IMG/VR virus record: IMGVR_UViG_2526164613_000026
Origin: a virus
Lineage: Duplodnaviria > Heunggongvirae > Uroviricota > Caudoviricetes
Strand: one strand, 5' to 3'
DNA length: 38,095 nucleotides
Below the pieces are notes generated by a model. It made no database searches and was not told the DNA's origin. It was given only the letters and a program-made list of their open reading frames with translations. The position numbers were made by a program, and so were the translations under genes. Position 1 is the first letter of the stretch. Each line of letters opens with the position of its first letter. Below are positions 1 through 36,029 of this stretch, piece by piece.

Positions 1-618
1 TGCATGATCCATAATTGTGTGTGATTGCCCTGAAAGTAGGGTACGTCCGACATCAATCCCGCGCCCATCATCCCAGATACGAATGAAATCACCGCGTGCG
101 TCAGGTAATGCCAGCGCCGGAAACACTTTCGCCAGCACAGGGTAATCAGTGGCAGAGAATTTCGCGCCGTTGAACTTCAAAAACACCATACCGGACCAGC
201 TATCGATTACGGTATCTGGCATTGCAGCGGACGGCCAGAAGAACGGAACGCCAATAGCTGGAGCTCCTTCTCCCAAACCAAGGTTTTCGAGAGCCGTTTT
301 CACCGTGCCATCCGATTTGATATCACCAAACGGATTCTTGCGGCTCAGGTATTCAACAGCAAACCCCGATCCCAGCAATTCAACAAAACCGGGCAGATCA
401 CCATTATCAAGCACATCCCGTTGCGTTTTATCACTTACAAACTGGGCCAGAGCTGCAGCAATAAAGCTGGCCTGCCGAATAACCTTATTGACTTGCGCAC
501 TGGAGGCTTTCCCTGCTGTAAATCCGGATAAAAGCGCGGGCAACGCTTCCCATTCCTCCTGCGATATAACATTGGCATTTCGATCCGTTGCAAACGCTTT
601 AAAGTCATTTTTCGTCAT
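1..618 (-). CDS. Tail fibre protein, N-terminal part (gene continues beyond window start)
   Basis: Minus-strand frame open from ATG at 618 to position 1 with no stop (hand-translated). ATGA overlap with upstream gene stop. Residues about 150-206 match the phage tail-collar motif ([42 protein letters not shown]). Confidence 0.7.
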
Positions 619-1298
619 CAGAGTAATACTCCCCATGCTCCTACATCAAAACCACTGATGAATTCGTTATCCATATCAAAACCAAAAAATTTTGAGCCTT
701 CCGATGGGGTTTCCACCGAAGGTGTTTCAATGCCACCCGCCCATACCCCGGCGGCTTTTACTGTGAGATACCCCTGTTTAATTGCCGCAATTAACTCACG
801 CGATACATCTGAAATATCAGTATCAGGAAAGACCCAGACCGATATCGTCATGTCCTGGTTATCGACTATCTGCATTCGCAGCCCGGATCCTGCTGTTGCC
901 GCGTCAAGAATTGCCGGAAGCGAATCATTCCGTCCGTCCCAGTTATTAATCGCAATCTTCGCTTTAAGAATGACACGATAAGTTTCATCGCTGAGATACA
1001 TGTATCCTGAATCAGGATCGTATGGTCCCTGCCATACCCCCTGATCATATCCAAGCCCGTCGGTATCCCAGCTGAAATAGACACCTGAGATAGGCTGGCT
1101 GACAACACGGCTACGTCCGATCCACAATCCAAGAATGTCAAGTTGCACACCAACCGCAGAGTCAATATCAAATGCAGTAATCAGCCCTCTGGTGGCAGCC
1201 GCAACATCAATAAGTGGCCGGGTCATCAGATCAACATGCGCAAGAAATTTAGGTTTGGTGGCGTGGTAGTTCGTGATTAGTTCGGTGTATTTGCTCAT
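618..1298 (-). CDS. Baseplate/tail fibre-associated protein (position of Mu gp48 / P2 gpI)
   Basis: 226 aa ORF, ATG verified at 1298, translationally coupled to J-like gene upstream and fibre gene downstream. Family assignment by synteny only. Confidence 0.55.
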
Positions 1299-2494
1299 GA
1301 CTCCACCGTTATAACGATATTTTCCGGGGTACAGGACACAGATTCGTTGTATCTGATATCAATGTTTGATGACGACAAAGCCCCCGGGGATTTCCCAATC
1401 GTCAGTTCCTGAATATCGTAATAGCGTGCATTCCCGCCACTCACCACGCCAAGATTCGCCGGTGAGTAAATGCGACTTAAAAGGACCGAATCACCAATCA
1501 TCAGACTATTGATATAGTCGGAAATAGCCTGCTGGATCTGCTGCCCTATCTGTGAGGTATAACCCGTAAAAACTTGTAATTTGATCCGGGCATAAACAGG
1601 TACATCACTGGAACGCGAGAACTTGATTACATGGGGATTGCCGTATTTATCCGGAATCGTAACGGATGTTGTACCGTGAGTGGCTGTCCCCTGACCTTTA
1701 TTCCCTCTGATAGCCTGAGCAATATCCGTCACATCACCGCCATCCACAATCACAGCAACAGAGTGTGGCGGTAACCCGTTACCGTCCTCCGAACCAGTAT
1801 CATTTTCATAGAGTTTGTGGCGGGTTACACCGGTAACATTAGAAACAGCACCATCCAGTGCTTCAAATGGGGTTATTGATGGCAACGCAACACTTTGCGA
1901 CTGACGGATACGTAACTCCGCATCAGTTTCTGCCGGAGAGCCAACAGTAGCCGCAGCAGGATTAGTTACCGAAACCCAGCCACGGGTTGGCGTATTAATT
2001 TCAGTGATTGTTCCAGCCAGCGCCGCCACTGCACCACTGACGGAACATGTTGCGGTCGCCATCACTGTACCATCCACGCCGACCACCACTGAAGCAGGCA
2101 AACGCCATATCACATTATTACTGTCTTTCACGCTGCCATTAATGATGGTTGTTCCGGCAGTTCCTGTAAGAAGCAAATCAACCGTAGAGTTCGTCGCGCC
2201 TTTACGTGAAATACCATTTATTTTCACGTTACTGGTCAGTGCAGCCCCATAGCCGGTTGCCGGTGAAAAACAGTTGTAGACAGTTATCGCCGTATTATTG
2301 GCATCATGAATCGCCAGTGCCATCAGAGCCACCATCTGGCCGTCTTTGCTGTCCGGTTCGAGGTAGGCATCACTGCCATAAATCTGCTGAAAATAGCTAA
2401 TCAGGGTGCTGAGTATCGTCTGATAATCAGGCGCACTGATCCCCTCTGCGGTTACCTTTGCAGATAAACCGAGAGAATCAAGGTTCAGAGCCAT
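1295..2494 (-). CDS. Baseplate J-like protein
   Basis: 399 aa, ATG at 2494, overlaps neighbours. Size and position after W-like and V-like genes fit baseplate J / Mu gp47. Confidence 0.75.
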   Translation of the reverse strand: MALNLDSLGLSAKVTAEGISAPDYQTILSTLISYFQQIYGSDAYLEPDSKDGQMVALMALAIHDANNTAITVYNCFSPATGYGAALTSNVKINGISRKGATNSTVDLLLTGTAGTTIINGSVKDSNNVIWRLPASVVVGVDGTVMATATCSVSGAVAALAGTITEINTPTRGWVSVTNPAAATVGSPAETDAELRIRQSQSVALPSITPFEALDGAVSNVTGVTRHKLYENDTGSEDGNGLPPHSVAVIVDGGDVTDIAQAIRGNKGQGTATHGTTSVTIPDKYGNPHVIKFSRSSDVPVYARIKLQVFTGYTSQIGQQIQQAISDYINSLMIGDSVLLSRIYSPANLGVVSGGNARYYDIQELTIGKSPGALSSSNIDIRYNESVSCTPENIVITVES

Positions 2495-2847
2495 TACGCC
2501 TCCGATGTAACAGTCGTTATTCCATAAAGAGTGTCGATTTCAGCGGAAAACATGACACGTCGGGTCGTGGTATCCACCGTCGTATTGAAAGAGAGGATTG
2601 ATTTAACGCCCCGAGTTTCGAGGATGCGCTTACGGATCGCCAGGTTGTAGGTTTCCGGCTTCTGCTTACCGAGCACAGACCGGATCCACGGAGTCCCTTC
2701 GGTGGTATCGAGAAACCATTGCCCATACCACAATTCGAATCGCGTTTTTACCGCCTGCGCCACGGCCTCCGGTGAGTTAATCAGCCAGGTGTCATCACCG
2801 CTGCCAAAGGTGTAATCGCCATCGGCGTCTTCACGTCTGTATCGCAT
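2494..2847 (-). CDS. Baseplate protein, W/gp25-like (Mu gp46-like)
   Basis: 117 aa, ATG at 2847, ATGA overlap with V-like stop. Size and position typical. Confidence 0.6.
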   Translation of the reverse strand: MRYRREDADGDYTFGSGDDTWLINSPEAVAQAVKTRFELWYGQWFLDTTEGTPWIRSVLGKQKPETYNLAIRKRILETRGVKSILSFNTTVDTTTRRVMFSAEIDTLYGITTVTSEA

Positions 2848-3599
2848 CAGTTTACCCCGTCGGTACTGCTTCCACCGCGCTGAACACCGCCATGAGAGTG
2901 CGTATCATCGATTGGCTTGCCGTTAGCCTTCACGCTCCCCAAGAACTCAACAGCACCAGTGATTTTTGAAGCCACACCAGAAACCACAGACCCCACCATG
3001 CCCCCCATCCAGGTTAACAGGCCATGAATGGTTACTTTCTCAGAAAAATCAGCCAGAGGGGCAACCACATCAAGACCACCCGGAGCGACAATTTTAATTT
3101 TCCTGGTATCAGGATTAAGCTCAAAATAGGTGCTGCCGTCGTCACTACGCAACTGTGTGGCACTGGTATTAATGCCGCTAATCTTCCTCGCCTGCGACTG
3201 GGGACCGACAATACAAAACGCATCCGATAAATCATGCATTCTGTCATCAACAGGCTCCTGTATCCCGCCGTTCTGCCACCAGAAATCAATACAACGATCG
3301 GCAAAAACGACAAGACACTCATCCCCGGCTTTTACCGGAAAAGTCAACGTACAGCCTCCGCCGCGCGGGAATACCACTGGCACATCCACCAGCAATGGGT
3401 AATTTTTGGTAATGCGGTTACCGTAATTATCCTTTTCAACCGAACGGATAGCTGGCTGCACAACCGCCGTCACCGCGTCAGGATCGAATGACTGAATAAT
3501 GCCAGGCAAGGCGACGCGGATCTGGTTCTTTGTTGTTTCCCGCTCGGACTTGAATGTTTCGGCAAGGTCACCGCTACGAGTCTGGTCTGATATGGCCAT
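2847..3599 (-). CDS. Baseplate assembly protein V / central spike
   Basis: ORF track starts at TTG 3632 inside a terminator hairpin. First ATG is at 3599 with AGGAG 8 nt upstream (250 aa). C-terminal HSHGGVQRGGSSTDG is typical of gpV / Mu gp45 spikes. Confidence 0.8.
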   Translation of the reverse strand: MAISDQTRSGDLAETFKSERETTKNQIRVALPGIIQSFDPDAVTAVVQPAIRSVEKDNYGNRITKNYPLLVDVPVVFPRGGGCTLTFPVKAGDECLVVFADRCIDFWWQNGGIQEPVDDRMHDLSDAFCIVGPQSQARKISGINTSATQLRSDDGSTYFELNPDTRKIKIVAPGGLDVVAPLADFSEKVTIHGLLTWMGGMVGSVVSGVASKITGAVEFLGSVKANGKPIDDTHSHGGVQRGGSSTDGVN

Positions 3600-29680: not shown

Positions 29681-30061
29681 TCACTCAGGAATCTTAATCT
29701 TTCTCAATTCTTTATTTAGTTCACAGATCTTTTTCTTAGACGGGAAAGTATCATACATCCAAAAACCAACAGTCTCTAAAACTATTATCATAACCATATA
29801 CACAAGATAATTTAAAAGGCCTTCATTTTGCCCTATGGAAATAATGCAGATAATAGAAAAAAGGGTAAACAGCACAAAACACAGAAAGGAAAACAGACGA
29901 CTAATAATAAATAAAAAACCTGAAAAATCAACATTAATAAAAAACACTCCGTTATCTTTCTCTATATAATTCTGAAGCTTAATCAACTGATTTATATACT
30001 GTCTTTTTTCTAATCTATTGCAAATGTAAATAACATCTCTTCGGTTATAAGAGGATTGCAA
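29681..30061 (-). CDS. Accessory membrane protein ORF, 126 aa from TTG (or C-terminal part of a longer gene interrupted by TAG)
   Basis: AT-rich, antisense to replication module. Two long hydrophobic segments. Starts at TTG without a Shine-Dalgarno. In frame with the ORF upstream across a single TAG. Confidence 0.45.
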   Translation of the reverse strand: MQSSYNRRDVIYICNRLEKRQYINQLIKLQNYIEKDNGVFFINVDFSGFLFIISRLFSFLCFVLFTLFSIICIISIGQNEGLLNYLVYMVMIIVLETVGFWMYDTFPSKKKICELNKELRKIKIPE

Positions 30062-30121
30062 TTTCAGCGCATCACGAATAATTTTATCATTTATTCTTTT
30101 TTCTATGGCTTTCTTATCCTC

Positions 30122-30310
30122 CTAATCCAGATAACGTTCATACTTAATTAAATATAAAATTAACTTCTTGACATATTTAGGCTCTTTATACTTATAATTA
30201 AAAATGATCTTTCTTATCCAGACTCCCATAACAATCAAACATGAAAAAATATATCCAGCTATTTTCTCCAGATGCTCTGTATGGTCAATCAAGTATTGGA
30301 TCATATGCAT
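30122..30310 (-). CDS. Small accessory membrane protein, 62 aa (or N-terminal part of interrupted gene)
   Basis: ATG at 30310, one hydrophobic segment (IAGYIFSCLIVMGVWI). Stop TAG at 30122..30124, followed in frame by 20 sense codons and then the 126-aa ORF. Confidence 0.4.
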   Translation of the reverse strand: MHMIQYLIDHTEHLEKIAGYIFSCLIVMGVWIRKIIFNYKYKEPKYVKKLILYLIKYERYLD

Positions 30311-32505: not shown

Positions 32506-33015
32506 ATGGAAAATACAGATGTCTGGCTATCAAGGATAGGTACTTTTGTTACCATAATTGGTGCTATGTGTTCACTATGGGGGTGGAAAAAGTCGCGGGA
32601 TGCCGCCACAGAAGCTCAAAAGGCTTTAGCTACGGTCAATTATCAACGTAGTATAAGGGACGCAGGCAACCTTCATGGAAAGTTATCAACCGCCATAAAA
32701 TCTCTAAGAGCAATTGGTCCTGGTTCGAATGAGGAAAATGTTCGAGGCATAAGTTTAGAACCAATAATTTCGGAAATAGAGGATTTCATCGATTTATTTG
32801 CAGCCCAAGCAATAAAACCTAACAATAAAGTAAAATTGAGCATAGACTCAGAAAATTTTTGTGCTGAAATAAGGGAAAATATTTCTGAACTTTCAGATGC
32901 AAAAACTCCTGCGGAAAAGTTAAGAACAGGTAGAGTTTTGCATGCAAAAATATTGGCTATTCAACCTCACATAGATCTACTCGTTGATGATTTAACGTTT
33001 AACACTCAAGGATAA
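32506..33015 (+). CDS. Accessory membrane-anchored protein, 169 aa, unknown function
   Basis: AT-rich. N-terminal hydrophobic anchor (IGTFVTIIGAMCSLWGW). Upstream inverted repeat GATACAT-N17-ATGTATC at 32438..32468. Confidence 0.5.
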   Translation: MENTDVWLSRIGTFVTIIGAMCSLWGWKKSRDAATEAQKALATVNYQRSIRDAGNLHGKLSTAIKSLRAIGPGSNEENVRGISLEPIISEIEDFIDLFAAQAIKPNNKVKLSIDSENFCAEIRENISELSDAKTPAEKLRTGRVLHAKILAIQPHIDLLVDDLTFNTQG

Positions 33016-33020
33016 AAAAC

Positions 33021-33571
33021 ATGCAACTTTCAGATGGCGAAAAACTAATTCTAATGATGCTGTGTGACCTGTACGATAAAAACGAGATTGAAGGCGAAAT
33101 CGATCACACATTTGTCCGTGATGCTATATTCGAAAACCAAACATGGGCACTCCCTTGGAAATTTAGTGGTATTCCATTTAAAAACACCGAAACTCCACGT
33201 GTTGTAAAAAAAGTTCTAGACATCCTAGATATGTGGAGAGTTATTGAATATAGCTACAGTGAACTTACAGAAGAAGAAAAAAGAAGTTAAAAGAAAATGT
33301 TGAGTTATTTGGAAAAAAACCAATATTCAAAGGATTCGATGGAAATAACGAAACTGAGTATCTTGCAGCCGCTGATTTCGTCATCAATAAACTGGATAGA
33401 TTTGAAGAATTCAAATTAAGAGATCTTAATTCTCACATGCCTTCGCTGGCATCATACGAACGCATGATGCATGTATTCAATCCATTATTTCATGAGAATT
33501 TTGGCGAGCCATTGACACTAGAACAACTAACCTTAGTTCTCCGTGAAAAAATTCATCCCAGCCGTCGCTAA
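33021..33571 (+). pseudogene. YfbU-family (UPF0304) protein gene interrupted by a 1-nt frameshift in an A6 run
   Basis: Frame 0 (89 aa, ATG 33021, AGGA upstream) stops at TAA 33288..33290. The -1 frame is open from 33263 to TAA 33569..33571 with no start before codon 47 of the continuation. Both halves align with E. coli YfbU as recalled. Adding one A to the run at 33277..33282 would give a single ~183-aa ORF. Confidence 0.5.
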
Positions 33572-33613: not shown

Positions 33614-33883
33614 ATGATATATGAACGTGAAAACCTAATCGAGAAGCATCTCGTCGCCGAAGTGAAAAAGGCTGGTGGGGTCGCCTTTAAGTTCATATCA
33701 CCTAGTCGCCGCTCGGTACCAGATCGCATTGTTCTGCTACCCGGCGGCCGTCTCGTTTTCGTTGAATGTAAATCTCCCGGCAAGCCACCACGGCCTGACC
33801 AGTTGCGCGAGCATGAACGTCTGCGAAAGCTGGGCTTTACCGTGGTAGTACTGGATAGCAAAAATTTAGAGGGGATATTGTGA
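33614..33883 (+). CDS. VRR-NUC domain nuclease
   Basis: 89 aa, ATG with AAGGAAA upstream. PD-(D/E)XK-type D...E.K core (PDRIVLLPGGRLVFVECKSPG). Confidence 0.7.
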   Translation: MIYERENLIEKHLVAEVKKAGGVAFKFISPSRRSVPDRIVLLPGGRLVFVECKSPGKPPRPDQLREHERLRKLGFTVVVLDSKNLEGIL

Positions 33884-33888
33884 GACAA

Positions 33889-34599
33889 TCATTCTGAGCG
33901 ACTTTTCTTGAGCTTAGAAGCTTTTAAAAAACATACTTTTAGTTGTTGTGTTTCTTTTATGCTTACAGGAATTAATTTCCCCTCAATTCCTTCGACACTC
34001 ATAAATTCAGAGCTATTTTTTTTACAGTTCCCCAAGACAAATTTTCCGTTATAGCTTTCGATAATATAAGCATTATATTTTTTAGAATAAAAAAGGGGCT
34101 CATCTGATAAGTATGCCCATGCCCACCCAAGGACTGAAGGAAGCATTGCTATGGATATAAAAAGCATAACCCCATGAGTTTTGTTTTTTATTCTAAATTC
34201 ATTCCTAATAAAAACAGATACTGCCCTGACACTGATAGGGCTAATAAATCCCAATAGTATTGCTTGGGTAGCCACATCCCTTATGGATTTTTCATAAAGG
34301 TATGAGCTACCGCCATATAAATACATTGTCCAGTATGAAAGCAAAGAGGCCAAAATGAAGAAAAATAAATACACCCACCATGGAATATTCTTCTCTTCAG
34401 TATCAATATGCAGCAAAGCGACTAAGGTGCACAAAAGTCCTAATGCAATAACAGAAAATTTAACTATTTCCTCAATCCCAATAGAAATAAAACTTACAGG
34501 GAATCCATAAAATGAGCTGTACCCTTTGTAAAAAGAAAAAGCCATAAAATAAAGGGCGGCCAAGAGAACCGTTGTAATTGATAAATCTTTTACATTCAT
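33889..34599 (-). CDS. Accessory polytopic membrane protein, 236 aa, unknown function
   Basis: ORF track starts at GTG 34614; ATG at 34599 (MNVKDL). About five hydrophobic helices then a soluble Lys-rich C-terminal domain. AT-rich, antisense, convergent with VRR-NUC (5-nt gap) and divergent from the SNF2 gene (38-nt gap). Confidence 0.55.
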   Translation of the reverse strand: MNVKDLSITTVLLAALYFMAFSFYKGYSSFYGFPVSFISIGIEEIVKFSVIALGLLCTLVALLHIDTEEKNIPWWVYLFFFILASLLSYWTMYLYGGSSYLYEKSIRDVATQAILLGFISPISVRAVSVFIRNEFRIKNKTHGVMLFISIAMLPSVLGWAWAYLSDEPLFYSKKYNAYIIESYNGKFVLGNCKKNSSEFMSVEGIEGKLIPVSIKETQQLKVCFLKASKLKKSRSE

Positions 34600-34637
34600 G
34601 ATGTTCAAGAGCACCTTTCTAATCAGGGATTTTCTTC

Positions 34638-36029
34638 ATGATAACTTTTAAACCACGTCCCTACCAAGATCTCATCATCAATCATCAAATCGAGACCCTG
34701 CGCGGCAACATCTGGGCAGGGATGGGGATGGGTAAAACCGTAGCGACACTCACCACGCTGGAAGATCTTTTCATGGCTGGAGCAGAAACACGCCCCGCGC
34801 TGGTCCTCGCGCCGCTACGCGTTGCAGCAAGCACTTGGCCTGATGAAGCTGTTAAATGGGGGCATCTGCGTAATATTGAGGTACAGCCGATCATCGGTAA
34901 CGCCAAAGCGCGCTCTACAGCGCTGGCGAACAGCAACGCGAGCGTGTTCACAATCAACTACGATAACCTTGTCTGGCTGGTTGAAGAATTGGGAGAACGA
35001 TGGCCGTTCGGTACTGTCATTCCAGATGAAAGCACCCGGCTAAAATCCTTCCGGCTGCGAGGTGGTGGTAAGCGCGCGGCGGCGCTGGGCAAAGTGGCGC
35101 ACAAGTATGTCCGGCGCTGGATAAATCTCACCGGTACGCCAGCACCGAACGGCCTGGTAGATTTGTGGGGACAATCGTGGTTTGTGGACCAGGGGCAACG
35201 TCTCGGGCGCACTTACGGTGCGTTTACCTCACGCTGGTTCAAATCGATACAGTTTCCGGGGCAGAGCTGGACCAAACTGGAGCCTTTTGCTCACTCACAG
35301 GGTGAAATACAGCGAGCGTTAGCCGATGTGACCCTCTCGCTGGATGCAGCCGACTGGTTCGATATCAAAGACCCCATCCATAACGTAATCCGCGTGGATA
35401 TGCCGCCGAAGGCCCGTCAGCAGTATCGTGAAATGGAAAAGGAAATGTTCCTCGAGCTGAATGGCGAAGGCATCGAAGCACCGAACGCCGCGGCAAAGAC
35501 ACTGAAGTGTCTGCAAATCGCCAGCGGCGCAGTATACACAGATGACACCGGAAGTTGGTCAGAACTGCATGACACCAAACTACAGGCGCTGGACAGCATA
35601 CTGACCGAAGCAGCTGGCGCACCTGTGCTGGTTGCTTATCACTGGAAACACGATCTTGAACGCTTGCTTAAAGCATTTCCTCGCGGTCGTCACCTCGACC
35701 AGGATCCACAGACACTACGTGACTGGAATTCCGGAAAGATTCCTGTTCTCTTTGCACACCCAGCCAGCGCGGGCCACGGTCTGAACATGCAGGACGGCGG
35801 AAACATACTGGTATTTTTCTCACATTGGTGGGACCTGGAGCAGTATCAGCAAATTATTGAACGTATCGGCCCAACCAGACAGATACAGGCCGGACACAAT
35901 CGTCCGGTATTTATTCACCACATTATTGCTGCCGACACTATGGACGAAATGGTGATGGAGCGGCGCAACTCAAAACGAACAGTGCAGGACATCCTGCTCG
36001 ATGCCATGAAAAAGAGAGGTATAGCATGA
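34638..36029 (+). CDS. SNF2/DEAD-like helicase
   Basis: 463 aa. Walker A GMGMGKT, DEAD-like box IPDESTRL, C-terminal helicase domain. Confidence 0.85.
   Translation: MITFKPRPYQDLIINHQIETLRGNIWAGMGMGKTVATLTTLEDLFMAGAETRPALVLAPLRVAASTWPDEAVKWGHLRNIEVQPIIGNAKARSTALANSNASVFTINYDNLVWLVEELGERWPFGTVIPDESTRLKSFRLRGGGKRAAALGKVAHKYVRRWINLTGTPAPNGLVDLWGQSWFVDQGQRLGRTYGAFTSRWFKSIQFPGQSWTKLEPFAHSQGEIQRALADVTLSLDAADWFDIKDPIHNVIRVDMPPKARQQYREMEKEMFLELNGEGIEAPNAAAKTLKCLQIASGAVYTDDTGSWSELHDTKLQALDSILTEAAGAPVLVAYHWKHDLERLLKAFPRGRHLDQDPQTLRDWNSGKIPVLFAHPASAGHGLNMQDGGNILVFFSHWWDLEQYQQIIERIGPTRQIQAGHNRPVFIHHIIAADTMDEMVMERRNSKRTVQDILLDAMKKRGIA

What the first reader, a model, noticed from the sequence alone, without database searches (positions are those of the whole stretch)
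33889..34637. Antisense polytopic membrane protein wedged between VRR-NUC and SNF2 helicase genes
A 236-aa protein with about five TM helices and a Lys-rich soluble C-terminal domain is encoded on the opposite strand. It converges on the VRR-NUC stop with a 5-nt gap and diverges from the helicase start by 38 nt, so its promoter must lie inside helicase coding sequence and its transcript is antisense to read-through from the replication operon. The gene is AT-rich against a GC-richer module. This is a third independent accessory insertion in the same operon, suggesting this inter-gene space is a hotspot for cargo.
Basis: partly seen in the sequence, partly recalled or inferred. Interest (0 to 1): 0.6.

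Follow-up and report, generated by a model that had tools for sequence, protein, structure and literature searches.

The report
Prophage cargo-slot membrane protein, probable exclusion
A real, selectively maintained gene for a five-helix inner-membrane protein of unknown family sits backwards in a swap-prone slot of an E. coli prophage's replication genes, a slot that in sister prophages carries known anti-phage genes, so it is most likely a new phage-exclusion or defence protein, though nothing has been tested.

Summary
ORF 33889-34599 (-) encodes 236 aa with five TM helices and a Lys-rich 72-aa tail. It lies 5 nt from the VRR-NUC stop and 38 nt from the SNF2 start, at 35% GC against 52-57% flanks. 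It is a real gene: dN/dS is 0.08-0.3 across genera.

The window is an E. coli O55:H7 DEC5B-type myovirus prophage at yfhL, with an APSE-like replication module. The VRR-NUC|SNF2 junction is a cassette-exchange hotspot. Of about 155 related E. coli prophages, 22 carry this gene. Others carry BstA (a proven abortive-infection protein), Dcm+BstA, a TIR-like protein, DUF6338, Arc/Rha regulators, small unknowns, or two very divergent homologues of the same family (265 aa, 243 aa).

The family is rare and restricted to Enterobacterales. Most members match phrog_35408, of unknown function. It has no Pfam or PADLOC model and no PDB or BFVD fold match. Two cysteines in the C-terminal SH3-like domain are invariant, and charge bias predicts N-in, C-out.

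Best reading: a lysogen-expressed inner-membrane superinfection-exclusion or defence protein acting at the periplasmic face. This is inferred, not shown.

Caveat: 12 of 22 E. coli copies differ in length, and all four of those inspected carry a +1 frameshift in an A8 tract.

The parts
33889..34599 (-). CDS of the 236-aa membrane protein (stop codon 33889-33891; ATG 34597-34599); identical to WP_001101053.1 of E. coli DEC5B
   Evidence: dN/dS 0.08-0.31; conserved N-terminus MNVKDL in homologues
34108..34599 (-). Residues 1-164: five-helix transmembrane bundle. It includes the family motif after TM1 (Y17, G26, G32-x-P34, I38) and G158-W159 at the end of TM5
   Evidence: AlphaFold model pLDDT 81.5, pTM 0.80; hydropathy; conservation
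33892..34107 (-). Residues 165-236: small SH3/Sm-like beta-barrel plus a basic C-terminal helix, predicted periplasmic. It carries the two family-invariant cysteines (Cys192 codon 34024-34026; Cys223 codon 33931-33933)
34016..34023 (-). A8 homopolymer on the coding strand, directly after the Cys192 codon. An A9 version (+1 frameshift, 195-aa product without Cys223) was seen in all four length-variant E. coli copies inspected and in one IMG/VR contig; 12 of 22 E. coli copies differ in length by 1-2 nt
34600..34637 (.). 38-nt divergent intergenic spacer. It holds the SNF2 ribosome-binding site (AGGGA, + strand) and a GAAAGG upstream of the membrane gene (- strand)
   Evidence: read from sequence
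34638..34667 (-). Sigma-70-like promoter candidate for the membrane gene: -35 TTGGTA (34667-34662), 18-nt spacer, -10 TATCAT (34643-34638) overlapping the SNF2 start codon
   Evidence: count not above shuffles; the same match is present in the Salmonella, BFo2 and DUF6338 cassettes but not in other cassette types
33862..34652 (.). Approximate extent of the exchangeable cassette. Homology between prophages with different cargo breaks after CTGGATAGCAA near the end of VRR-NUC and resumes at CCNCGNCCNTAYCAAGA, codons 6-11 of SNF2
33614..33883 (+). Left flank: VRR-NUC nuclease gene (89 aa)
34638..36029 (+). Right flank: SNF2-family helicase gene (463 aa), 74% identical to APSE phage P41

Best explanation
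The gene is a prophage accessory ('moron'-type) cassette, probably expressed from its own promoter in the lysogen. It encodes a polytopic inner-membrane protein: N-terminus in the cytoplasm, five TM helices, and a ~70-residue disulfide-stabilised SH3-like domain in the periplasm. I propose it excludes superinfecting phages at the genome-entry step. The conserved periplasm-facing surface (the loop after TM1, the end of TM5 and the C-terminal domain) would bind or obstruct the incoming phage's tape-measure or ejection-protein conduit, or its inner-membrane receptor. This is functionally like P22 SieA or HK97 gp15, without being related to them. Shown: the gene is real and constrained, it is accessory, and it sits in a cassette hotspot that elsewhere carries a proven defence gene. 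Inferred: topology, disulfide, expression in the lysogen, and the exclusion mechanism itself.
For: 1. Accessory and swappable. Only 22 of ~155 related E. coli prophages have it. The cassette borders lie inside the ends of the flanking genes.

2. Guilt by location.
- The same slot carries BstA in other strains (PADLOC E=1e-115 and 2.5e-110). BstA is an experimentally proven, constitutively expressed prophage abortive-infection protein (PMC8585504).
- The slot also carries a weak TIR-like hit.
- The neighbouring slot carries the PDC-S35 TIR candidate system.
- A distant family member lies next to GmrSD and HEPN genes.

3. Orientation. Most slot cargos, including this one, face against the replication operon. 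This fits transcription independent of the lytic programme.

4. Long-term purifying selection, dN/dS 0.08-0.31. The gene is intact in decayed prophages where SNF2, polymerase and SSB are broken: Enterobacter L005/L006 and Serratia L024/L025. This suggests a benefit to the host rather than to phage replication.

5. Three alleles (236, 265 and 243 aa) occupy the same slot in one E. coli prophage lineage. The 265-aa type is ~22% identical to the target in the alignment, and the 243-aa type is detectable only by profile comparison. P22 SieA shows a similar pattern, with three sequence types under 30% identical to one another (PMC10883804).

6. No invariant polar or catalytic residues across 32 members. 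Only C192 and C223 are invariant, and Y17, G26, G32, P34, I38 and G158 nearly so. This argues for a binding or structural role, not an enzyme.

7. Topology. K+R counts are 5.97 for N-terminus+loop2+loop4 against 1.91 for loop1+loop3, which gives N-in and, with five TMs, C-out. Two invariant Cys as the only Cys of the soluble domain fit a periplasmic disulfide.
Against: - No experiment, transcript or phenotype exists for any member.
- No sequence or profile relation to any known exclusion or defence protein: P22 SieA hhalign probability 0.3%, no PADLOC hit, and no PDB or BFVD fold match.
- Location in a hotspot is circumstantial. The same slot also holds regulators (Arc, Rha, Ant) and a methyltransferase.
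- Twelve of 22 E. coli copies differ in length by 1-2 nt. All four of those inspected have a +1 frameshift in the A8 tract that removes Cys223 and the terminal helix. In E. coli the intact gene is therefore often dispensable.
- The promoter match is no better than chance.
Confidence: 0.4

Rival explanations
1. Abortive-infection or membrane-effector protein. The protein sits inert in the inner membrane and, on sensing an infection cue, oligomerises into a pore or otherwise collapses membrane potential. This kills the infected cell before progeny are made, like lambda RexB or other membrane-disrupting defence effectors.
For: The same defence-hotspot argument applies as above. The best-characterised alternative occupant of the slot, BstA, is itself an abortive-infection protein. 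It is a single-gene cassette with a helical bundle large enough to form oligomeric pores. It faces against the operon, with convergent transcription that could silence it during the prophage's own lytic cycle.
Against: No sensor-like cytoplasmic domain is present; cytoplasmic loops are about 10 residues. The conserved positions cluster on the predicted periplasmic side. There is no similarity to any PADLOC effector model. No partner gene is present, since the gaps to the neighbours are 5 and 38 nt.
Confidence: 0.22
2. A lysogenic-conversion or host-fitness membrane factor unrelated to phages. Examples: an immunity protein against a membrane-targeting bacteriocin or tailocin, an envelope-stress factor, or a colonisation factor.
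For: Polytopic inner-membrane proteins of 110-240 aa are typical of pore-forming bacteriocin immunity proteins (my background knowledge, not tested here). The gene is retained in decayed prophages. It is restricted to Enterobacterales, including insect symbionts.
Against: No toxin or bacteriocin gene lies adjacent in any context examined. All located members are in prophage or defence-island-like surroundings.
Confidence: 0.15
3. A function in the phage's own lytic cycle, for example membrane tethering of the replication complex or modulation of lysis or injection for this phage.
For: It is embedded in the replication module and keeps the same neighbours across genera, down to ~22% identity.
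Against: It is absent from most related prophages, including the inducible phage vB_EcoM-689R2, which has a different cargo there. It is oriented against the operon. It is frameshifted in many otherwise intact-looking prophages. It remains intact where the replication genes are dead.
Confidence: 0.08
4. Functionless hitch-hiker. The ORF is a decaying remnant carried along by recombination, with no current role in E. coli.
For: Twelve of 22 E. coli copies differ in length, and all four inspected carry the A9 frameshift. Two neighbouring accessory genes in this very window are also broken: a nonsense codon in the 29681-30310 gene and a frameshift in the YfbU gene.
Against: dN/dS is 0.08-0.31 between genera, with synonymous sites near saturation. 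Invariant residues are kept at ~20% identity across 32 members. The copy in this window is intact.
Confidence: 0.1

Closest known systems
P22 SieA (superinfection exclusion, Salmonella phage P22)
   Same: Both are small, prophage-encoded polytopic inner-membrane proteins, single genes encoded against the neighbouring genes. SieA exists as several sequence types under 30% identical to one another. SieA blocks DNA injection by interfering with the ejection-protein conduit (PMC10883804). This is the proposed working analogy.
   Different: No detectable homology (hhalign probability 0.3%). SieA is 162-164 aa with three predicted TMs and no C-terminal domain. The target has five TMs plus a 70-aa Cys-pair domain. 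The genomic position differs (immI/late region versus replication module). Function here is untested.
BstA (prophage abortive-infection protein with aba self-immunity)
   Same: It occupies exactly the same VRR-NUC|SNF2 slot, on the same strand, in sister E. coli prophages. BstA is constitutively expressed from prophages (PMC8585504).
   Different: BstA is a soluble DNA-associated protein of ~300 aa with KilA-N/HTH-like domains. There is no sequence relation: the target gets no hit to the BstA model. No aba-like element was looked for.
Defence hotspots of P2-like prophages and P4-like satellites (bioRxiv 10.1101/2021.01.21.427644; abstract only seen)
   Same: Conserved core genes flank a fixed position that carries alternative, often AT-rich, often reverse-oriented cargo, including known defence systems.
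   Different: The phage lineage differs: a myovirus prophage with an APSE/BPP-1-type replication module at yfhL. Here the slot is inside the replication operon, and the exchange borders run into the flanking coding sequences. I found no description of this hotspot in the searched literature.
phrog_35408 (PHROGs v4, unknown function)
   Same: Twenty of 32 family members match it, best E=1.6e-45. The 265-aa allele matches at E=0.0036. This is the only database family that covers the group.
   Different: The target protein itself does not reach E<=0.1 against it. The PHROG carries no functional annotation.
DUF6338 (PF19865)
   Same: It is another membrane protein with N-terminal TM helices and a C-terminal beta-rich part. 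It occupies the same slot and strand in E. coli ECONIH2.
   Different: No profile similarity (hhalign probability 0.3%). It comes with a 47-aa partner ORF. Its function is also unknown.

Membership tests
P22 SieA-type superinfection exclusion proteins | Sequence or profile homology to SieA | tested here: not met
   hhalign of the 32-sequence family profile against P22 SieA (NP_059639.1): probability 0.3%, 13 columns aligned
P22 SieA-type superinfection exclusion proteins | Integral inner-membrane protein expressed from the prophage | tested here: inconclusive
   Five TM helices predicted. Membrane location and expression in the lysogen were not measured.
P22 SieA-type superinfection exclusion proteins | Blocks DNA injection of specific phages; escape mutations map to ejection or tape-measure proteins | not testable with these tools
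   Requires plating, K+ efflux and DNA-entry assays.
BstA abortive-infection family | Match to the BstA profile (PADLOC PDLC02356 / phrog_6287) | tested here: not met
   No hit for the target at E<=1. The occupants of the same slot in L004 and L032 match at 1e-115 and 2.5e-110.
Known anti-phage defence proteins (PADLOC-DB v2.0.0) | Match to any of 5,027 defence-protein models | tested here: not met
   0 families at E<=1
Prophage accessory/defence hotspot cargo | Conserved flanking core genes with alternative, unrelated gene content at one position among related elements | tested here: met
   At least 11 different contents between VRR-NUC and SNF2 in E. coli, Yersinia and Hamiltonella phages and prophages
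Prophage accessory/defence hotspot cargo | Some alternative occupants are experimentally validated defence systems | tested here: met
   BstA in L004 and L032; function from PMC8585504
Moron (independently transcribed prophage accessory gene) | Deviant base composition relative to neighbours | tested here: met
   GC 0.35 against 0.52-0.57
Moron (independently transcribed prophage accessory gene) | Own promoter and terminator; expressed in the lysogen | tested here: inconclusive
   One 9/12 sigma-70-like match overlaps the SNF2 ATG, and one terminator-like hairpin lies inside VRR-NUC (33653-33640). Both counts are at chance level. No expression data.
DUF6338 (PF19865) | Match to the Pfam model or profile similarity | tested here: not met
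   No Pfam hit for the target or any of 32 members; hhalign probability 0.3%
phrog_35408 (unknown function) | Match to the PHROG profile | tested here: inconclusive
   The target itself gets no hit at E<=0.1. Twenty of 32 homologues in its alignment match, best 1.6e-45. It is linked to them by the profile search and by hhalign.

The most novel reading that the evidence does not exclude
The gene founds an undescribed family of single-gene, inner-membrane anti-phage proteins. The family would be specific to Enterobacterales prophages and would have a fold without known relatives: a 5-TM bundle plus a disulfide-locked periplasmic SH3-like domain. It would have diversified into barely recognisable alleles at one fixed slot of the APSE-type replication module, in an arms race with phage injection machinery. 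In E. coli its expression may be switched on and off by slippage in an A8 tract placed right after the first invariant cysteine.
Probability: 0.3. Interest if true: 0.6.

Novelty: new member of a known kind. Interest (0 to 1): 0.45.

Why it matters
If the protein excludes phages, it adds a new, structurally unprecedented family to the short list of inner-membrane proteins that stop phage genome entry. It would also offer a tool for dissecting how myovirus or siphovirus tape-measure or ejection complexes cross the inner membrane.

Independently of function, the VRR-NUC|SNF2 junction is a compact, easily PCR-able hotspot. It sits in a widespread prophage lineage (E. coli, Salmonella, Yersinia, Serratia, insect symbionts, APSE). 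It already contains one validated defence gene and several uncharacterised candidates: the 305-aa TIR-like protein, DUF6338+47 aa, and proteins of 108, 106 and 164 aa. It could be mined the way the P2/P4 hotspots were.

Carriers include EHEC/EPEC lineages (O55:H7, and strains 97-3250 and O111:H11 8D), where prophage-encoded exclusion shapes which Stx phages can enter. That last point is my inference.

Tried and rejected
Searches with no informative result for the target:
- Single-sequence scans of Pfam, NCBIfam, PADLOC and PHROGs: no hit.
- tblastn against 50,697 deposited phage genomes: no match.
- PDB sequence profile search: only chance-level membrane hits.
- Foldseek against BFVD: nothing at E<=0.001.
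- The afdb50 library was unavailable.
- The search for related loci with the broad alignment failed for lack of conserved stretches. With the close alignment it found nothing in GTDB representative genomes.

Ideas tested and rejected:
- A universal 'resident' antisense promoter in the conserved 5' end of SNF2 that would drive whatever cargo is in the slot. Rejected: the match exists only where SNF2 starts ATGATA (the target and DUF6338 cassettes), not for the BstA, 265-aa, 243-aa, 108-aa or YeP4 cassettes.
- The slot is the APSE toxin-cassette locus. Rejected: in APSE-1 and APSE-2 the P44|P41 interval holds Ant and a regulator, not the toxins.
- Relation to the other membrane protein of this module (phrog_10579 in the DUF2815|pol slot). 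Rejected: hhalign probability 1.5%.

Literature searches for the accession numbers, DUF6338, or this hotspot found nothing relevant.
Full report
**1. What is in the sequence**

The minus-strand ORF 33889..34614 (241 aa from GTG) contains an ATG at 34599 that gives 236 aa. This ATG is the start conserved in all close homologues (MNVKDLSITT...). It is also the one RefSeq uses for the identical protein WP_001101053.1 in E. coli O55:H7 DEC5B.

- The VRR-NUC gene (33614-33883, +) ends 5 nt before the ORF's stop codon.
- The SNF2 helicase ATG (34638, +) lies 38 nt from the ORF's ATG.

GC is 0.35 over the gene, against 0.52-0.57 in the polymerase and helicase genes.

The protein has the described architecture:
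- Hydropathy and an AlphaFold2 model (13-sequence alignment, mean pLDDT 81.5, pTM 0.80) both give five long helices: 8-31, 42-63, 74-96, 106-132 and 140-164.
- A beta-rich domain (170-211) and a basic helix (214-235) follow.
- The last 72 residues hold 12 Lys.

The ORF is not a chance reading frame. At local composition the chance of 236 stop-free codons is about 2e-8. Orthologues from Salmonella, Enterobacter, the thrips symbiont BFo2 and an IMG/VR contig give pairwise dN/dS of 0.08-0.31, with dS of 0.2-1.6.

**2. Where the window comes from**

The region is 100% identical to E. coli O55:H7 DEC5B (NZ_CP038389.1), apart from one 1-nt indel. It is a prophage integrated beside yfhL/shoB.

The left 25 kb encode a myovirus-type virion: sheath, tape measure, baseplate, portal, terminase and holin. 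A primase-helicase and a CI/LexA-like repressor are also present.

The + strand operon from about 26.8 kb carries DUF2800 nuclease, DUF2815/Enc34-type SSB, family-A DNA polymerase, VRR-NUC, SNF2 helicase and an HTH/excisionase-like gene. The integrase follows on the minus strand. This is the replication module of the APSE (Hamiltonella), BPP-1, BcepC6B and Xfas53 phages. The SNF2 protein is 74% identical to APSE P41.

**3. The junction is a cassette hotspot**

About 151-155 of 5,426 complete E. coli genomes carry closely related VRR-NUC and SNF2 genes, always chromosomal. Only 22 have this gene between them.

Contents of the same interval that I retrieved:

| Content | Strand relative to the operon | Locus / source |
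|---|---|---|
| BstA | opposite | L004 |
| Dcm methyltransferase + BstA | Dcm same, BstA opposite | L032 |
| Dcm + 106-aa ORF | Dcm same, ORF opposite | L033 |
| 305-aa protein, weak TIR-effector hit | same | L012; also inducible phage vB_EcoM-689R2 |
| DUF6338 membrane protein + 47-aa ORF | opposite | L010 |
| 108-aa protein (phrog_28127) | opposite | L002 |
| Arc, Arc and Rha-type regulators | mixed | L034 |
| 164-aa ORF | opposite | Yersinia phage YeP4 |
| Ant + regulator | same | APSE-1, APSE-2 |
| 265-aa protein (homologue, see section 4) | opposite | L003, L011 |
| 243-aa protein (homologue, see section 4) | opposite | L035 |

The two other intervals in the operon also vary between relatives:
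- DUF2815|pol holds a 209-aa membrane protein, or Nmad5 plus an 89-aa ORF.
- pol|VRR-NUC holds 169 aa + YfbU, or ANR + DUF4406, or TIR/PDC-S35 + ANR, or a GHKL-ATPase protein.

Aligning the junctions shows where homology breaks. It holds up to CTGGATAGCAA, about 20 nt before the VRR-NUC stop. It resumes at CCNCGNCCNTAYCAAGA, codons 6-11 of SNF2. The C-terminal residues of VRR-NUC and the first ~5 residues of SNF2 therefore travel with the cargo. This is the signature of cassette exchange by homologous recombination within the flanking genes, rather than insertion into an intergenic space.

In strain FDAARGOS_144 the cargo gene is 99.0% identical to the window. The whole 1.78-kb interval is only 96.6% identical, so the flanks are about 95% identical by my arithmetic. 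This is consistent with recent lateral spread of the cassette.

**4. The protein family**

A word-indexed search of 5.8 billion proteins found 17 clusters, all Enterobacterales, down to 51% identity. An exhaustive profile search of 1.84 billion representatives found 35 at E<=0.001, and the full-length ones are 228-265 aa. Named members come from Escherichia, Salmonella, Enterobacter, Izhakiella, Serratia, Yersinia and the BFo2 symbiont. All are annotated 'hypothetical'.

Database coverage is minimal:
- No Pfam, NCBIfam or PADLOC family covers the group.
- Twenty of 32 members match phrog_35408, 'unknown function'.

Two slot occupants in other E. coli prophages turn out to be homologues:
- The 265-aa occupant is nearly identical to representative P0043.
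- The 243-aa occupant aligns to the family profile with hhalign probability 99.4%, E=5e-22.

One prophage lineage in one species therefore carries three very divergent alleles of this family in the same slot. The 265-aa type is about 22% identical to the target in the alignment. The three occur in 22, 17 and 6 genomes.

The association with the slot is old:
- The Salmonella (68% identity, different integrase and att site) and BFo2 (75%) orthologues sit in the same place, with the same 38-nt and 5-6-nt gaps.
- The 51% allele in IMG/VR contigs does too.
- So does a 22% Serratia member.

Other distant members lie next to an integrase and holins in a prophage remnant, beside GmrSD and HEPN genes, or near a toxin-antitoxin pair.

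In Enterobacter (L005/L006) and Serratia (L024/L025) the surrounding replication genes are fragmented while this gene is intact.

**5. Clues to mechanism**

Across 32 members at about 20% identity, only Cys192 and Cys223 are invariant. They are the only cysteines of the soluble domain. Y17, G26, G32, P34, I38 and G158 are nearly invariant. No invariant acidic, basic, His or Ser residue exists, so an enzyme is unlikely.

Family-averaged K+R counts are 5.97 for N-terminus+loop2+loop4 against 1.91 for loop1+loop3. This predicts N-in and, with five helices, a periplasmic C-terminal domain. A conserved Cys pair makes sense there as a disulfide. The conserved GY..F.G(Y/F)P..FI motif after TM1 and the G-W at the end of TM5 would also face the periplasm.

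It is unrelated to P22 SieA, DUF6338 or the module's other membrane protein.

Taken together, the following features point to a lysogen-expressed anti-phage function:
- accessory status;
- a slot shared with a proven abortive-infection gene;
- reverse orientation;
- retention in dead prophages;
- hyperdivergent alleles;
- a non-enzymatic, periplasm-facing conserved surface.

I favour exclusion at the genome-entry step, by analogy with the inner-membrane protein SieA (PMC10883804). SieA blocks the ejection-protein conduit and likewise exists as sequence types under 30% identical to one another. I put this at about 0.4. A membrane-effector abortive-infection role is next, at about 0.2. The topology, the disulfide, expression and the phenotype are all inferred.

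**6. Transcription geometry**

With 38 nt between the start codons, any sigma-70 promoter for the gene must overlap SNF2. The scan finds one candidate: -35 TTGGTA at 34667-34662, an 18-nt spacer, and -10 TATCAT at 34643-34638, where CAT is the complement of the SNF2 ATG. However, two promoter-like sites in 1.6 kb is what shuffled sequence gives.

The motif recurs in the Salmonella and BFo2 orthologous cassettes and in the DUF6338 cassette, but not in the other cassette types. It is therefore cassette-borne, not a resident promoter. Its conservation cannot be separated from coding constraint on SNF2.

There is no room for a terminator before VRR-NUC. The only terminator-like hairpin on the minus strand downstream lies inside VRR-NUC at 33653-33640, again at chance level. 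Read-through of the + strand operon must cross the gene antisense to reach SNF2. Mutual interference is plausible but untested.

**7. A caveat found on the way**

The coding strand has an A8 run (window 34016-34023) immediately after the Cys192 codon.

In strains 97-3250, O111:H11 8D, M-17 and A34, and in one IMG/VR contig, the run is A9. The frame shifts and the product ends at 195 aa without Cys223. RefSeq annotates that product as WP_001101050.1 in 97-3250 and 8D, and as a different 195-aa protein, WP_001520093.1, in M-17. A34 has a second indel as well and ends earlier.

Twelve of the 22 E. coli copies show the 712- or 713-nt length, of which I inspected four. This is either repeated or inherited inactivation or a slippage switch. 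Either way, the intact protein is not indispensable in E. coli.

**8. Verdict**

It is a new member of a known kind of thing, namely prophage hotspot cargo and a probable exclusion or defence protein. It is not a new kind of system. Interest is moderate: it is a good, cheap experimental candidate, and the hotspot is worth mining, but the function is unproven.

Noticed in passing
window 33021-33571 (indel near 33276): The YfbU-family gene is split into two frames in the window (33021-33290 and 33437-33571). RefSeq DEC5B has one extra base in an AGAAGAAGAAA stretch and annotates an intact 183-aa protein. This is the only difference in 10.7 kb, so it is either a strain difference or a sequencing error.
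   Followed up: partly
window 29681-30310 (-): The reverse-strand accessory gene between DUF2815 and DNA polymerase encodes a 209-aa membrane protein (phrog_10579). It carries an in-frame stop at codon 63 here, is intact in E. coli strain 48 (L003 281-910), and is not annotated in DEC5B.
   Followed up: yes
window 34016-34023; L036-L039, L014: The A8 tract right after the Cys192 codon is A9 (+1 frameshift, 195-aa product) in strains 97-3250, 8D, M-17 and A34 and in an IMG/VR contig. Twelve of 22 E. coli copies have the altered length. Possible phase variation or recurrent inactivation.
   Followed up: partly
window 33862-33883 and 34638-34652: The last codons of VRR-NUC and the first ~5 codons of SNF2 differ according to which cargo lies between them. 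The recombination borders therefore lie inside the flanking genes.
   Followed up: yes
window 32506-33571; L010 1957-2718; L011 1906-2934; L035 976-2166: The polymerase|VRR-NUC interval is a second hotspot. The window has an unknown 169-aa protein plus YfbU. Relatives have ANR+DUF4406, a TIR protein matching candidate system PDC-S35 (E=1.7e-109), or a reverse-strand GHKL-ATPase protein. One relative has an ISEc60 insertion.
   Followed up: partly
L005/L006 (Enterobacter cloacae), L024/L025 (Serratia marcescens): Decayed prophages in which the SNF2, polymerase and SSB genes are fragmented still keep an intact member of the membrane-protein family. In Serratia they also keep an intact TIR gene.
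   Followed up: partly
L012 3295-4212 (+); L029 1458-2375 (phage vB_EcoM-689R2): A 305-aa same-strand occupant of the slot has a weak match to a TIR effector model (PADLOC E=1e-6) and no Pfam domain. It is the commonest alternative in the sampled E. coli rows and is present in an inducible phage.
   Followed up: no
window 34638-36029; L027, L028: The replication module is the APSE/BPP-1/BcepC6B type (SNF2 74% identical to APSE P41), joined here to a myovirus structural module. In APSE the equivalent P44|P41 interval carries Ant and a regulator, and it differs between APSE-1 and APSE-2 (extra gene G).
   Followed up: partly
L021 132-3860: A distant family member (P0050) lies directly downstream of a GmrSD-type (DUF262) gene, a HEPN (RiboL-PSP/MAE_28990) gene and DUF1493, on a short metagenomic contig. 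This looks like a defence-island context.
   Followed up: no
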